Source: Octopus vulgaris (Eukaryota). From it: a stretch of DNA of 64,000 nucleotides. The stretch lies in NCBI GenBank assembly GCA_951406725.2, contig OX597842.1, positions 19,778,001 to 19,842,000 of the forward strand. The letters run 5' to 3'. A program made the position numbers. Of this stretch, positions 23,301-64,000 are shown one piece after another; positions within the stretch are counted from its first letter, which is position 1, and each line of letters starts with the position of its first letter.

Positions 23301-26300
23301 TCTTGCAAATTCTGTAAAGAGTTTTTATTTTTTTTAATAAATAAATATTTTGATTTTGTTTGCTTATTTTTCTGTTGTTTTTATCTTATATAACATGTCT
23401 TTACATGATACACGTATAATACAATACCACATTAAAATACAAATCCTAAACCAAAAGAAACACAAACAGGAGGTGCAGCAAGTACCCTTATAGGGATCAC
23501 CGAATGCATTCTGTAAGGCAAGGCGCCAACAATGGTAAGAACTTCACTGTGGCAAATGTCACAGGTGGAAGAAATGGGTCACACTTCATTTCCTATTCTT
23601 AAGGATTTTGTTCTCGTTGGCTACGGAAGCAGTGACCCTTTGATTATAATTGAAGATATTTATGCTAAAGCAATGGGTATACATATGCAAATGTACCCCA
23701 CCGACTTTGTTTCTTCATAACTTCTGGAAAAAATGGGTATTTTTAAATGAAAATTTTGAGAAATACCTTTAAGAAAGTGTAGATTGCAATTATATTGGAA
23801 TAGCACACGTTGGTGGGACACCACACACACACATACACATCACATTCTTTTGCATTCTAAGATTCAGTCAAAATTTTCAAATTTGGAATATTCATGTAAT
23901 TTTCCAAGCTGAATCTGCTACCACTCACTTTTTCTGGAAAGAATATTTTAAAAAGTGGACCTTTTCTGTTTGTGTTTTTCCCTTCAGCTCCTTCGGTTTC
24001 AAATTTATTGATTTCGAGTTTAGTGTATTGATGTAGTTTTGTCTGTTAATTATATAAATGAAATTAGTTGTTGTCCTAAGTTGATAAATACACAGTTAAT
24101 AGCTTTTAAGATTTTTAAACTCCCAGTAAAAGACGGAGCAGAGTTTTGGAAAAAATATTGCTAAAATATGGATATAATTTATTTAAAAAACCAACTATTC
24201 CAATGCAATCAGTGAATGTCTTATTCTGATAAACAGAATTATTTCTTCTTTCCAGACCTCAGTTGAACCGTCCAACCCATGCTAGCATGGAAAGCAGACA
24301 ATGATGATGATGATGATGAAAAGAACACAAATTGTAGCGTTCTTATACTAATGTTTATTTCTTAAAATATTTGTAGCCGAACAAAGCGAGTCCAACAAGG
24401 AGTCCAGCAAGGAAGAGTGAGCCAAAAATGATTCCGACAATCTCGAGTGTAGTTAGTCCATGAGGTTTAGGTTTCGGATCTGCAATTGACAAACAATAAA
24501 ATATATACCTTTTGTTTTTTAATAAAAAAGCTTGACCATTTTCATACTAAACTATTAAAAAATACTTCCATTTCTGTTATACAAATTCCATTTCAAAGTG
24601 ATCTAAAGGAAAAGTCCCCATCAAAATTTCCAGTAACACTATGTTGCACACATGAGCTTGGTTATATAAAGCCTTGTGAGTGGATTTGGTAGACGGAAAC
24701 TGAAAGAAGCCCGTCGTATATATGTGTGTGTTTGTGTGTCTGTTTGTCCCCCTAGCATTGCTTGACAACCGATGCTGGTTTGTCTACATTCCCGTTACTT
24801 AGCGGTTCAGCAAGAGAACCAATTTGGTAGATGGAAACTGAAAGAAGCCCGTCGTATATATGTGTGTGTTTGTGTGTCTGTTTGTCCCCCTAGCATTAAT
24901 TGACAACCGATGCTGGGGTGTCTACGTCCCCGTTACTTAGCGGTTCAGCAAGAGAACCAATTTGGTAGATGGAAACTGAAAGAAGCCCGTGCGTATATAT
25001 GTGTGTGTTTGTGTGTCTGTTTGTCCTCCAAACATCGCTTGACAACCGTTGCTGGTTTGTCTACATCCCCGTTACTTAGTGGTTCGGCAAAAGAGAACTC
25101 ATAGAATAAGTACAAAGAATAAATCCTGGGGTTGATTTGCTCGACTAAAGGCGGTGCTCCAGCATGGCCACAGTCAAATGACTGAAACAAGTAAAAAGAG
25201 AAAGATAATATAACCTCCACACACACACACCTTGGTATTGACCCCCTCATCCTTTGCCCTTGTGGCAAATAAAAGAAACCCTTATATACAACTATCAACT
25301 GAGTCCATTGTGAAGATGGCCCCTCTACTTTCCTTCAACCAGGAAGGGCAACCAGTTTTTATCTGCTCGGGGCCCATGGCAAAAGGGATCATATAGTGGA
25401 CATGTCTGAAAGGGCTGAAGACCAGCAACTGCCATTTTGTCAAAACCCTAATAAACTTTATCAGGTTTCACTTGAAGAGGAAAATCAGGGTGGAGAGGTA
25501 AGTGCTGGCTTCCAAGCAGTTTGTTGAAAGGTGGGTGAGAGAGGTGAGCATTACCTGAGTGAATGGGCCTTCTCTTAGAGTGTACCTGTATATTGGAGAG
25601 GAAAGACTGGGAGAGGGTATCCACCCTGGTGGTCAGGGAGACCTTGGATTTACTGGGCTTTCGTAACGCGTAGCCCTTGACAGTCCCCCCACTATCAGGG
25701 ATCTTACTTTGAATTTCTTTTATTCTTTGTATGACTATTTACATGCTAAAACCCACACTGGACCCTCCCGAATGTTTTGCTTTGTGTTAGCCCTCTGTGG
25801 TCAATAAAGAAATTATTATAAATCATTTCCTTACTCTTTATCTCCAAATCAATGTCTGCAGCATTAAGGTTGTCATCATCAAATTTCCAAGTCAAACATT
25901 CCTTAGTTACGTTTCTGATCCAAAGCGTGGAGGTATCTTCTAAATGAGTCACTTTATACTGAGAGCTATTAACGCATGTCCTGTCACATTCATATTTATA
26001 ATTGTGGCACTTCCAAACCACCGGTCGTTTCATATCAGATATTGTTATCGAAAGGGTGAGGTTTCCATTGAGCACAGCAGGTCCTGAAATAAAGAAATCA
26101 GTTAAGAAGTTTGCTTCCAAATCATACGGTCCTGGGTTCAGTCCCACTACACAGCACCTTGGGAAAGTGTCTTCTACTACAGCATCAACCTTGTGAGTGG
26201 ATTTTCAAGATGGAAATTGAAAGAAGCCCATTCTATGTATGTGTGTGTGTGTGTATGTGTGCATGTGTATGTATATGTGTGTGTGTGTATATATATATAT

Positions 26301-26416
26301 ACATACACACTTGTGTGTTTCAAAGACTTGTGAGTGGATTTGATAGATGGAAACTAAAAGAAGCCTATTGTATGTATGTGTGTGTGTGTATATATATATT
26401 TATATGTATGTGTGTA

Positions 26417-62200: not shown

Positions 62201-64000
62201 GGGGTACAAACTATCCAATAGATATCACAGGGATCTGAAGTGGTGCATCGGAGGTCCATGGCATACCCTGGACCTGGGCTTTTCAGTTTTAAAATTGTTA
62301 TGGAAACTTTTCTGCAATGTTTACTAGAAAGCAGAAACTGGAAGTTTGGTATTTGGTATTTTTTGACATCCAGTCATCCCAATCTTTAGTTTAAAAATTT
62401 TGATAATTGCAAACCCTACTTACAAAGTTATAGTAAGAGTTATCAATAGGCGCAGAAGTGGCTGTGTGGTAAGTAGCTTGCTTACGAACCACATGGTTCC
62501 GGGTTCAGTCTCACTGTGTGGCATGTTGGGCAAGTGTCTTCTACTATAGCCTTGGGCCGACCAAAGCCTTGTGAGTGGATTTGGTAGACAGAAACTGAAA
62601 GAAGCCCGTCGTATATATGTATATATATATATGTGTGTTTGTGTGTCTGTTTGTCCTCCAAACATCGCTTGACAACTGATGCTGGTGTGTCTATGTCCCC
62701 GTTACTTAGCAGTTCGGCAAAAGAGAACTGATAGAATAAGTACTAGGCTTACAAGGAATAAATCCTGGGGTCGATTTGATCGACAAAACGCGGTGCTCCT
62801 GCATGGCCACAGTCAAATGACTGAAACAAGTAAAAAGAGAAAAAGAATATAACCCCCACACACACACACCTTGGTATTGACCCCCTCATCCTTTGCCCTT
62901 GTGGCAAATAAAAGAAACCCTTATTATATACAACTATCAGCTGAGTTCATTGTGAAGATGGCCCCTCTACTTTCCTTCAACCAGGAAGGGTAATCAGTTT
63001 TTATCTGCTCAGGGCCCATTGCAAAAGGGATCATACAGTGGACATGTCTGAAAGGGCTGAAGACCAGCAATTGCCATTTTGTCAAAACCCTAATAAACTT
63101 TGTCAGGTTTCACTTGAAGAGGAAAATCAGGGTGGAGAGGTAAGTGCTGGCTTCCAAGCAGTTTGTTGAAAGGTGGGTGAGAGAGGTGAGCATTACCTGA
63201 GTGAATGGGCCTTCTCTCAAAGTGTACCTGTATATTGGAGAGGAAAGACCGGGAGAGGGCATCCACCCTGGTGGTCAGGGAGACCTTGGATTTACTGGGC
63301 TTTCGTAACGCGTAGCCCTTGACAGTCCCCCCACTATCAGGTCTCTTACTTTGAATTTCTTTTATTCTTTGTATGACTTTTTACATGCTAAAACCCACAC
63401 TGTACCCTCCCGAATGTTTTCCTTTGTGTTAGCCCTCTGTGGTTAATAAAGAAATTATTATAAATCATTTCTTACTCTTTATCTCCAAATCAATTTTTCG
63501 AACGTTAAGGTTGTCATCATCAAATATCCAAGTCAAACATTTCTTAGTTACTTTTTTGATCCAAAGCGTGGAGGTATCTCCATCCTGTGTCACTTTATAG
63601 TCAGGGCCATCAGCGCATGTCTTGTCACATTCATATTTATAATTGCGGCACATCCAAACCACCGGTCGTTTCATATAAGGTATTGTTATCGTAAGGGTGA
63701 GACATCCATTGAGCACAGCAATTCCTGAAATAATGAAATCAGTTAAGAAGTTTGCTTCCAAATCATATGTTCCCGGGTTCAGTCCCACTACACTGCACCT
63801 TGGGAAAGTGTCTTCTACTACAGCCTGTGTGGATTTGCTAGATGGAAACTGAAAGAAGCCCATTGTATGTATCTGTGTGTGTGTGTATGTATATGTGTGT
63901 GTGTATATATGTATATACATACACACTTGTGTGTTTCAAAGCCTTGTGAGTGTATTTGATAGATGGAAACTGAAAGAAGCCCTTTGTTTATATATATGTA

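What the first reader, a model, noticed from the sequence alone, without database searches (positions are those of the whole stretch)
24355..63724. Hidden, expanding family of Ig-like type I membrane protein genes assembled from 249-bp cassette exons
Seen: five minus-strand exons (25835-26083, 28413-28661, 51640-51888, 58198-58446, 63476-63724), all exactly 249 bp, stop-free, with a pyrimidine-tract/AG acceptor and a GTAAG donor in phase 1-1. They sit among LINE fragments that are full of stops and indels. They splice in frame to each other and to a terminal exon (24355-24479; 50375-50508) encoding a Pro-rich stalk, a hydrophobic helix of about 21 aa and KYFKK*. Established: symmetric phase-1 exons, one per domain, are typical of Ig-superfamily genes. 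Inference: these are two paralogous receptor genes (A with 2 domains, B with at least 3) from a lineage-specific recognition family that I cannot match to a named gene. The analogy is to Hydractinia Alr, snail FREP IgSF domains or vertebrate paired receptors.
Basis: partly seen in the sequence, partly recalled or inferred. Interest (0 to 1): 0.93.

Follow-up and report, generated by a model that had tools for sequence, protein, structure and literature searches.

The report
Fast-diversifying octopus Ig-like membrane protein genes
Two neighbouring octopus genes encode cell-surface proteins built from repeated antibody-like domains whose coding exons change faster than the surrounding non-coding DNA; the family is computer-annotated but unstudied and seems limited to octopuses.

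Summary
The five 249-bp minus-strand exons are real and lie exactly where stated. The window is Octopus vulgaris. Each exon encodes most of an Ig-like domain (AlphaFold pLDDT 93.6; the best PDB fold matches listed are Ig domains). The family has no name and was found only in octopods (O. vulgaris, O. sinensis, O. bimaculoides, Argonauta hians).

- A 39-nt phase 1-1 mini-exon precedes each domain exon and encodes strand A of the domain.
- Gene A's signal-peptide exon and 5'UTR exon are in the window, so gene A is complete.
- Gene B's terminal exon has an in-frame TAA at its second codon, so B is either tail-less (secreted) or decaying.

The family is not hidden. NCBI models exist (LOC115225115/6, "uncharacterized"; a chimeric O. 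vulgaris model), with isoforms that differ in domain number. I found no paper on it.

The strongest new result concerns rates of change. Domain exons are more diverged than their introns (60/249 versus 55/487 variable sites, p=1.4e-5). Non-synonymous divergence is 1.2-4.2 times intron divergence in 7/7 pairs. The exons carry no stop or indel. Site patterns are mosaic, as expected from gene conversion.

Best reading: diversifying surface recognition/adhesion glycoproteins that work like the CEACAM or CD2 families. A new member of a known kind.

The parts
34476..34552 (-). Gene A 5'UTR exon (non-coding; has both an acceptor and a donor)
   Evidence: Matches the over-extended N-termini of models P0009, P0044, P0048 and P0039. 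Boundaries read.
33294..33342 (-). Gene A signal-peptide exon. ATG at 33339; encodes MAKWILFCLLFVTFL; ends in phase 1
   Evidence: Identical to the matching stretch of P0039 and 14 of 15 residues to the start of P0043.
30628..30666 (-). Gene A mini-exon 1: 39 nt, phase 1-1, LSRAQKYKITQS. Encodes strand A of domain 1
   Evidence: Flanked by a cag acceptor and a gtaaat donor. The homologous segment of P0054 forms a strand at pLDDT about 95.
28413..28661 (-). Gene A domain exon A1 (249 nt, phase 1-1). Ig-like domain strands A' to G
   Evidence: AF2 pLDDT 93.6. Foldseek returns Ig domains. 100% identical to P0039.
27798..27836 (-). Gene A mini-exon 2: 39 nt, phase 1-1, LSRTQKYNITQS
   Evidence: The splice sites are intact, but the exon is skipped in the O. 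vulgaris model P0039.
25835..26083 (-). Gene A domain exon A2 (249 nt)
24355..24479 (-). Gene A terminal coding exon: Pro/Lys stalk, helix of about 23 aa with small-xxx-small motifs, KYFKK and TAA
   Evidence: 86% identical to the C-terminus of O. sinensis LOC115225116 (P0042).
63476..63724 (-). Gene B domain exon B1. The gene continues beyond base 64000
   Evidence: P0039 has one more domain upstream.
60712..60750 (-). Gene B mini-exon: 39 nt, FSSANIYKITQS
58198..58446 (-). Gene B domain exon B2
55435..55473 (-). Gene B mini-exon: 39 nt, FSSDSIYKIYQS
51640..51888 (-). Gene B domain exon B3, the most diverged copy. It has a clear O. sinensis counterpart (P0001 domain 4)
   Evidence: Tree support 100/100.
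50375..50508 (-). Gene B terminal exon. An in-frame TAA at 50503-50501 lies ahead of the stalk, helix and KYFKK
   Evidence: The homologues have Lys at this codon.
54214..64000 (.). Two tandem modules of about 5.27 kb (54214-58722 and 59479-64000), 95.5% identical. Each holds one mini-exon, one domain exon and intronic RT and SINE debris
26103..26272 (.). SINE copy ending 19 nt upstream of exon A2. The same arrangement precedes all five domain exons
   Evidence: Positions 72-241 of the 260-nt upstream flank match 20 or more dispersed copies at 70-76% identity.

Best explanation
The window holds two tandem paralogues of an octopod-restricted family of type I surface glycoproteins, still unnamed.

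Shown:
- Each ectodomain module is an Ig-like beta-sandwich written in two symmetric phase-1 exons: 39 nt for strand A and 249 nt for the rest.
- The domain lacks the canonical B-F disulfide. It has a nearly invariant ECDxTC pair, and a second Cys pair (positions 25 and 62) that is present or absent together.
- Modules are followed by a short Pro/Lys stalk, one transmembrane helix and a 5-residue tail.
- Gene A is complete. Gene B has lost its anchor to a stop codon in its last exon.
- The domain exons diverge faster than their introns, mainly by amino-acid changes, yet never lose the reading frame. Site patterns among copies are mosaic.

Inferred:
- The proteins bind partners through their ectodomains: ligands on other cells, or microbes.
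- They cannot signal by themselves. Any signal would need a partner recruited through the helix, which carries GxxxG-like motifs.
- Variety arises in four ways: duplication of modules and genes, gene conversion between copies, optional inclusion of the symmetric exons, and selection for amino-acid change, including gain and loss of N-glycosylation sites.
- Functionally they work like the CEACAM/PSG or CD2/CD58 families, most likely in an arms race or partner-matching context.
- Gene B, if expressed, would give a secreted form.
For: - Exon anatomy.
- Copy count in the window: (5 copies only).
- Fold: AF2 pLDDT 93.6 and pTM 0.83 for exon A1. Foldseek against PDB gave 5 matches at E<=0.001, and all of the roughly 45 rows listed are Ig domains, such as titin, obscurin, NCAM2, IgLON5, antibody VL, CD58 and PD-L1, with TMq 0.57-0.74.
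- With strand A included (P0054), residues 21-110 have pLDDT 92-96, ITQ forms a strand, and 230 PDB matches reach E<=0.001.
- The protein atlas gave mollusc clusters at 0.95, then V-set/I-set clusters at 0.90.
- Pfam I-set reaches 31-36 bits on whole models.
- Family and architecture (signal peptide, 1-5 domains, helix).
- Cysteines across 62 domains: C32/C36 both present in 61; C25/C62 both present in 32, both absent in 24, one only in 6.
- Selection: exon identity is below 270-bp flank identity in 10/10 pairs. Variable sites are 60/249 versus 55/487, p=1.4e-5. Exon identity is below distal-intron identity in 7/7 pairs. pN exceeds intron divergence in 7/7 pairs, 6/7 at p<0.005, while pS differs from intron divergence in only 1/7. 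dN/dS exceeds 1 in 9/10 pairs.
- Mosaic site patterns.
- N-glycosylation sequons number 0-3 per domain.
- Isoforms of one locus have 5, 4, 4 or 3, 2, 2 domains. P0001 and P0043 carry two mini-exon peptides in a row, meaning a domain exon is skipped. P0039 and P0045 join domain to domain directly.
Against: - I could reach no expression, RNA or binding data, so the tissue, the ligand and the very use of the splice sites rest on automated gene models.
- No single pairwise dN/dS test is significant (Fisher p 0.088-0.66).
- The pairs are not independent.
- Gene conversion could make introns look young instead of exons looking fast. That would still require selection to keep exon differences.
- One pair (A2-B2) shows no real excess (0.928 versus 0.929; pN/pI 1.22, p=0.26).
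- Pfam does not recognise a single exon (best I-set E=0.096, 13.2 bits against a cut-off of 23.7; 4 of 5 exons have no hit).
- A profile of the family finds no solved structure by sequence (0 at E<=1).
- The only O. vulgaris model over this locus (P0039) is chimeric, and its stalk differs from the window.
- Gene B may simply be dying.
Confidence: 0.6

Rival explanations
1. Immune receptors or opsonins of haemocytes. The ectodomains bind microbes or parasites. The membrane forms act with a signalling partner and the tail-less form (gene B) acts as a soluble recognition factor. Diversification is driven by pathogens.
For: Diversifying exons, copy turnover, variable glycosylation sites and an anchor-less paralogue. 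The pattern recalls snail FREPs and vertebrate paired receptors; that comparison is recalled, not tested.
Against: No lectin, fibrinogen or signalling domain in the four family proteins scanned (P0039, P0040, P0046, P0011). No charged residue in the core of the helix to recruit an adaptor. No expression data. The 17 locus ids and one UniProt id searched appear in 0 papers.
Confidence: 0.3
2. Host adhesion molecules that pathogens exploit as receptors, as with CEACAM. The normal role is cell-cell adhesion in epithelia. Rapid change and a secreted decoy (gene B) arise from escape from pathogen adhesins.
For: The same selection evidence. A V/I-like domain without the canonical disulfide and a very short tail, as in CEACAM N domains and CD2/CD58 (recalled). 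CD58 is among the fold matches (rank 28).
Against: No sequence relationship to any solved Ig protein. No data on pathogens or tissues.
Confidence: 0.15
3. Cell-identity or self-recognition labels. These would be neuronal wiring codes, or the unknown skin cue that stops an octopus's suckers from gripping its own arms. Isoform and paralogue combinations would give specificity through homophilic binding.
For: The family was found only in octopods. Many clustered paralogues lie on one chromosome. Combinatorial cassette exons are seen. An sDscam Ig1 domain is among the fold matches (rank 26).
Against: Wiring codes such as protocadherins usually evolve under constraint, not with dN above the neutral rate.
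Confidence: 0.1
4. Reproductive proteins (gamete or spermatophore recognition), whose rapid evolution comes from sexual conflict.
For: Only the rate pattern and the restriction to a narrow lineage.
Against: Nothing specific points to gonads. Multi-domain membrane architecture with many paralogues is less typical of this class.
Confidence: 0.07
5. Not functional genes: decaying duplicates or transposon-carried pseudo-exons that gene finders stitched together.
For: Gene B has a premature stop. The models P0039, P0040 and P0048 are chimeric with zinc-finger or histone genes. A SINE abuts every acceptor. dN/dS near or above 1 is also what relaxed constraint gives.
Against: Five of five copies keep frame and length, with p about 0.013 for stops alone and 0 versus 10 indels. 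Non-synonymous change exceeds the intron rate, which relaxation cannot give. The core residues W23, E31, C32, C36, V44, W65 and L79 are kept in 60-62 of 62 domains, including Argonauta. The fold prediction is confident. The exon itself matches no dispersed repeat in the window.
Confidence: 0.04

Closest known systems
CEACAM/PSG family and CD2/CD58/SLAM family of vertebrate IgSF adhesion molecules (properties recalled from general knowledge)
   Same: Type I proteins with 1-5 Ig-like domains written in symmetric phase-1 exons. The membrane-distal V/I-like domain lacks the canonical disulfide. Tails are short or absent, and secreted relatives exist. The genes sit in tandem clusters with gene conversion, copy-number turnover, alternative domain numbers and fast amino-acid change. 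CD58 appears among the fold matches.
   Different: No detectable sequence homology (0 PDB chains at E<=1 with the family profile). Here every domain has the same type and its own Cys pattern (ECDxTC plus C25-C62). Each domain is split over a 39-nt and a 249-nt exon. No ITIM/ITAM-bearing long-tail forms were seen among the proteins retrieved.
I-set / V-set immunoglobulin domains (Pfam PF07679, PF07686)
   Same: Seven- to nine-strand beta-sandwich. Trp in strand C. An L-x-I-x-x-V motif in strand E. An A strand reading ITQSG, which resembles antibody framework 1 (that resemblance is recalled). Best structural matches are titin I27/M1, obscurin, NCAM2 and antibody VL.
   Different: No Cys in strands B and F. 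A single exon does not reach the Pfam cut-off. Sequence identity to the structural matches is 8-23%.
HYR_4C, 'HYR-like domain with 4 cysteines' (PF23237), in bacterial surface proteins
   Same: The family profile picks up these repeats over nearly their whole length (model positions 8-80). They share EC..T and tW.F.D.N.N motifs and probably an Ig-like fold.
   Different: Pfam's own HYR_4C model hits none of the five exons at E<=10, and none of the four family proteins scanned at E<=0.01. Profile-profile probability is only 62.8%. The high whole-protein scores come from 6-9 near-identical repeats.
Snail FREPs and Hydractinia Alr
   Same: Lineage-specific, diversified invertebrate IgSF recognition genes in clusters.
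   Different: No fibrinogen domain in the four family proteins scanned. Somatic diversification and allelic polymorphism were not testable. No cytoplasmic signalling motifs.

Membership tests
Immunoglobulin superfamily (Ig-like fold) | Greek-key beta-sandwich of 7-9 strands that superposes on solved Ig domains | tested here: met
   AF2 pLDDT 93.6 with 7 strands. Foldseek PDB rows listed are all Ig domains, TMq up to 0.74. With strand A included, 230 matches reach E<=0.001. This rests on a prediction, not a solved structure.
Immunoglobulin superfamily (Ig-like fold) | Conserved Trp in strand C packing the core | tested here: met
   W23 is present in 61 of 62 domains and lies in predicted strand 21-25.
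Immunoglobulin superfamily (Ig-like fold) | Canonical disulfide between strands B and F | tested here: not met
   The B strand reads L-T-L-S-I-T and the F strand T-W-K-F, with no Cys. The cysteines sit at positions 25, 32, 36 and 62. Some accepted IgSF domains also lack this bridge (recalled), so the failure is not disqualifying.
Immunoglobulin superfamily (Ig-like fold) | Match to a Pfam Ig-clan model above its curated cut-off | tested here: inconclusive
   Single exons: 1 of 5 has a weak I-set hit (13.2 bits against a cut-off of 23.7); 4 of 5 have none. Whole multi-domain models reach 31.3-35.8 bits, summed over weak stretches.
HYR_4C (PF23237) | Match to the Pfam model | tested here: not met
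   No hit at E<=10 in the five exons. No hit at E<=0.01 in P0039, P0040, P0046 or P0011.
HYR_4C (PF23237) | Profile-profile similarity to bona fide HYR_4C repeats | tested here: inconclusive
   hhalign of 62 octopus domains against 31 bacterial repeats: probability 62.8%, E=7e-5, 61 columns.
FREP (fibrinogen-related protein) | C-terminal fibrinogen domain after the IgSF domains | tested here: not met
   No fibrinogen family in P0039, P0040, P0046 or P0011. The window's terminal exons encode a stalk and a helix.
CEACAM / CD2-type IgSF adhesion families | Sequence homology to family members | tested here: not met
   The family profile finds 0 of 177635 distinct PDB sequences at E<=1. The resemblance is in architecture and evolutionary mode only.
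Allorecognition or paired-receptor systems (Alr, KIR-like) | High allelic polymorphism; activating/inhibitory tail pairs | not testable with these tools
   Only one haplotype was available. The tails seen are 5-7 residues without tyrosine motifs apart from the Y in KYFKK.
   Only the 5 colinear copies occur in 64 kb. The adjacent SINE stops 19 nt before the exon. The genome-wide count could not be made, because no cephalopod DNA collection was available.

The most novel reading that the evidence does not exclude
The cluster is an octopod invention for individual- or tissue-level surface identity. It would be a combinatorial Ig-like label system (many clustered paralogues, optional cassette exons, gene conversion, positive selection) serving as a diversified immune recognition repertoire, or as the still-unknown skin cue behind sucker self-avoidance. 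For the latter I saw only the title of Nesher et al. 2014, in the reference list of PMC8988249; its content is recalled. Gene B-type anchor-less copies would act as soluble forms.
Probability: 0.12. Interest if true: 0.85.

Novelty: new member of a known kind. Interest (0 to 1): 0.5.

Why it matters
Cephalopod immunity and cell-surface recognition are poorly known at the molecular level. No diversified receptor family has been described for octopuses in the literature I could search. These were nine searches: 17 locus ids and one UniProt id gave 0 papers, and the keyword searches found nothing on this family.

This locus offers a concrete candidate that can be tested. It is a compact Ig-like module with its own cysteine pattern. 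It is written in symmetric exons that can be added, dropped, converted and duplicated, and its amino-acid sequence changes faster than neutral DNA. It also shows that the current gene models here are unreliable, with chimeras to zinc-finger and histone genes, so expression studies based on them may miscount this family.

Tried and rejected
Names came from the search for homologous proteins instead.
- One homologue search was wasted. The alignment query with 'longer' searched only 539-2000 aa and returned just P0039.
I tried twice, the second time as the tool's message advised. No statement on binding follows from this.
- A profile search of PDB sequences found 0 hits.
- Pfam on single exons was nearly blank.
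- I considered the HYR_4C link and left it open.
- I looked for an alternative in-frame acceptor that would rescue gene B's terminal exon, by reading the sequence. There is none.
- I looked for the 12-residue stalk of P0039 (PKPEPPKPKTYS) in all six frames. It is absent from the window, so P0039's C-terminus is not explained by this sequence.
- Weak plus-strand similarity at 22302-22533 (E 0.5-1.2) was judged to be chance.
- The tail of P0040 is an exon of a zinc-finger gene, not a family exon.
- The SPLASH preprint's octopus passages (passages only) do not concern this family.
All searches and folds with window sequence were made exon by exon. The multi-exon architecture comes from mapping database proteins onto the window.

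
Full report
**1. What is in the sequence**

Each is 249 bp and open in one frame. All 5 of 5 follow a pyrimidine-rich ...tttcag acceptor and precede a gtaag donor. Each is built as 2+246+1 bases, which gives phase 1-1.

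They are the only copies in the 64-kb window.
- blastn gives 5 hits at E<=2e-70; the next best is E=0.53.
- tblastn gives 5 hits at E<=2e-31; the next is 0.68.
- A family HMM run over 2131 six-frame ORF pieces gives 5 hits at E<=2e-40; the next is 0.14.

The window has no N. Reverse-transcriptase fragments lie in the introns on the opposite strand (RVT_1, E=4e-12 at 54006-54374).

**2. Source and existing annotation**

One exon translation (28414-28659) finds, at 100% identity, a 694-aa 'Hypothetical predicted protein [Octopus vulgaris]' (P0039). It also finds O. sinensis 'uncharacterized protein LOC115225115' (isoforms up to X16) and 'LOC115225116' (up to X8). All 14 of 14 hits are Octopus.

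A profile of 23 family sequences gave 37 hits: 22 O. sinensis, 9 O. vulgaris, 4 O. bimaculoides, 1 Argonauta hians and 1 unnamed. Every named one is 'uncharacterized' or 'hypothetical'. Many lie on the same 21.3-Mb O. sinensis scaffold or the same 34.6-Mb O. vulgaris contig.

An exhaustive profile search of 1.84 billion representatives gave 38 proteins at E<=1e-3, 26 of them at E<=1e-10. The strong ones share one architecture: signal peptide, 1-5 domains, a helix.

So the family is not hidden from gene finders. It is, however, unnamed. I found no paper on it: 17 locus ids and one UniProt id gave 0 papers, and the keyword searches returned nothing on this family. Supplementary tables, which might list these ids, were closed.

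**3. Corrected gene anatomy**

I mapped database proteins onto the window and did not join any exons.

Gene A, minus strand:
- 5'UTR exon, 34476-34552
- signal-peptide exon, 33294-33342 (ATG at 33339, MAKWILFCLLFVTFL)
- mini-exon, 30628-30666
- domain A1, 28413-28661
- mini-exon, 27798-27836
- domain A2, 25835-26083
- terminal exon, 24355-24479

Gene B, minus strand:
- at least one domain beyond the window (P0039 starts with a domain 94% identical to B1)
- domain B1, 63476-63724
- mini-exon, 60712-60750
- domain B2, 58198-58446
- mini-exon, 55435-55473
- domain B3, 51640-51888
- terminal exon, 50375-50508

The four mini-exons are each 39 nt and phase 1-1, with cag/gtaaat sites. They encode (L/F)S(R/S)xxxY(K/N)I(T/Y)QS. 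Any combination of mini-exons and domain exons therefore stays in frame.

The database models use them as cassettes.
- P0001 and P0043 contain two mini-exon peptides in a row, meaning a domain exon is skipped.
- P0039 and P0045 join domain to domain directly.
- Isoforms of one locus have 5, 4, 4 or 3, 2, 2 domains.

These are computed models. I could not see the reads behind them.

**4. Gene B has lost its anchor**

In the reading frame set by phase 1, terminal exon B reads Pro-TAA. The stop is at 50503-50501. Exon A and the homologues have AAA (Lys) at this codon. Reading the sequence, I found no downstream AG that restores the frame.

Because the stop is in the last exon, the message may still be stable and would give an anchor-less, presumably secreted, protein. 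That step is inference. The alternative is decay.

The O. vulgaris model P0039 avoids this exon. It runs from B3 through zinc-finger-gene fragments (47966-48097, 46119-46223) into gene A, which makes it a chimera.

**5. Fold**

AlphaFold2 on exon A1, with a 23-row alignment, gives pLDDT 93.6, pTM 0.83 and seven strands. Foldseek against PDB gives 5 matches at E<=0.001. All rows listed are Ig domains: titin M1/I27, twitchin Ig26, obscurin, NCAM2 Ig1, IgLON5, antibody VL, CD58 and PD-L1. TMq is 0.57-0.74 and sequence identity 12-23%.

A one-domain family protein (P0054) was folded with a 20-row alignment. It shows that the mini-exon-encoded ITQ forms a strand, with residues 21-110 at pLDDT 92-96. 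That model has 230 PDB matches at E<=0.001, again V/I-type Ig domains, including shark vNAR and sDscam Ig1.

The domain is therefore written in two exons: strand A in the 39-nt exon and the rest in the 249-nt exon.

Other evidence on the fold:
- The protein atlas puts mollusc hypothetical clusters first (0.95), then V-set/I-set clusters (0.90).
- Pfam sees a single exon barely (I-set E=0.096 in 1 of 5), but whole models reach 31-36 bits.
- A family profile finds no PDB chain by sequence.

**6. Signature residues**

Counts are across 62 non-identical full-length domains:
- W23 in 61
- E31 in 60
- C32 in 62
- C36 in 61
- V44 in 61
- W65 in 60
- L79 in 61

There is no Cys in strands B or F. C25 and C62 are both present in 32 domains, both absent in 24 and singly present in 6, which suggests a second bridge. 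Some domains lacking that pair have Cys at positions 68 and 73 instead.

The weaker hits include bacterial surface proteins. Five of the six I scanned carry Pfam HYR_4C, and three of those also carry a Por_Secre_tail. The match covers model positions 8-80, but hhalign gives only 62.8% probability, and Pfam's HYR_4C model does not hit the octopus proteins. I leave this link open.

**7. Evolution, the main new result**

The exons sit in large duplicated blocks. The region 54214-58722 is 95.5% identical to 59479-64000, and the A and B blocks are 87-91% identical. Within these blocks the exons are the most diverged part.

- Exon identity (0.827-0.928) is below the identity of the 270-bp flanks (0.918-0.967) in 10 of 10 pairs.
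- It is below the identity of intron sequence more than 150 bp away (0.915-0.962) in 7 of 7 pairs. One pair is effectively equal (A2-B2, 0.928 versus 0.929).
- Variable columns number 60 of 249 in the exon against 55 of 487 in the flanks (Fisher p=1.4e-5). Gap runs number 0 against 10.
- Non-synonymous divergence is 1.2-4.2 times distal-intron divergence in 7 of 7 pairs (one-sided p<0.005 in 6 of 7). Synonymous divergence differs from intron divergence in only 1 of 7.
- dN/dS exceeds 1 in 9 of 10 pairs, though no single test is significant (p 0.088-0.66).
- Substitutions thrown at random leave all five copies stop-free in 1.3% of 20000 trials.
- 39 of 82 residues vary among the five copies. 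They are densest at the N-terminus, the C'-D loop, the D-E turn and the E-F region. N-glycosylation sequons number 0-3 per domain.

Site patterns conflict along the exon. B1+B2 and A1+A2 group together at the 5' end. A2+B2 share a VNSSQ block against ADGPx in the others. B1 and B2 share 269 of 270 upstream bases. These patterns indicate gene conversion.

Caveats: the pairs are not independent, and conversion could rejuvenate introns. Exons that stay different amid converted introns would still need selection for difference.

**8. Tree**

In a tree of the 62 domains, the window's domains fall in a clade of 22 rows. All are from O. vulgaris or O. sinensis (support 99/90). B3 pairs with an O. sinensis domain at 100/100, and A2 pairs with B2 at 90/90. 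With 82 columns, many forks are open. The 11 rows whose species I could not name were kept and labelled 'unk'.

**9. Mechanism**

Shown: the architecture, the fold prediction and the rate pattern.

Inferred: these are surface glycoproteins that bind through the ectodomain. Their tail (KYFKK) is too short to signal. Their helix (GIIFGSLFLAGLLVG) has small-xxx-small motifs that could recruit a partner.

The family makes variety in four ways: module and gene duplication, conversion, optional exons, and selected amino-acid and glycan-site change. The nearest working analogues are the CEACAM/PSG and CD2/CD58 families, whose properties I recall from general knowledge and did not test. The biological arena (immunity, pathogen escape, cell identity or reproduction) cannot be decided without expression data.

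**10. Verdict**

- The family is a new, uncharacterised member of a known kind: clustered, diversifying IgSF surface receptors.
- Interest is moderate.

Noticed in passing
441-854 (-) and 1085-1465 (+): A divergent histone H2B/H2A gene pair lies at the window start (Pfam Histone, E 7e-23 and 3e-15). An O. vulgaris model (P0048) fuses an H2B reading frame to a paralogue's 5'UTR exon, another chimeric annotation.
   Followed up: partly
4523-5275 (-), 7285-9488 (-), 47942-48283 (-): C2H2 zinc-finger arrays built of about 84-bp tandem units, plus a lone finger fragment between genes A and B. The fragment and a zinc-finger-gene exon (9877-9999, 5522-5617, 46527-46646) are spliced onto family members in models P0039 and P0040.
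   Followed up: partly
e.g. 12128-12572, 15145-16622, 20977-21330, 40181-40721, 45690-45866; also 26103-26272: A SINE-like family is present in 20 or more copies on both strands, including a tandem array with a 181-bp period. One copy ends 19 nt upstream of each of the five domain exons, so the branch-point region of every module probably lies in SINE-derived sequence.
   Followed up: partly
22936-23854 vs 48935-49851: A 919-bp stretch downstream of both terminal exons is 98.5% identical, while the adjoining sequence is 84% identical. This suggests a recent conversion tract, or a young element, shared by loci A and B.
   Followed up: no
19444-20058 (-): A piggyBac-type transposase fragment (DDE_Tnp_1_7, E=1.7e-17).
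   Followed up: no
24433-24479 (-) versus P0039 residues 651-663: The O. vulgaris database model has a 12-residue stalk that occurs nowhere in the window, whose exon encodes a 9-residue stalk. Yet four domain exons are 100% identical to that model. This is an allelic, assembly or model difference that I could not resolve.
   Followed up: partly
13451-14464: A long TA/CA-rich microsatellite block gives spurious open frames on both strands.
   Followed up: no
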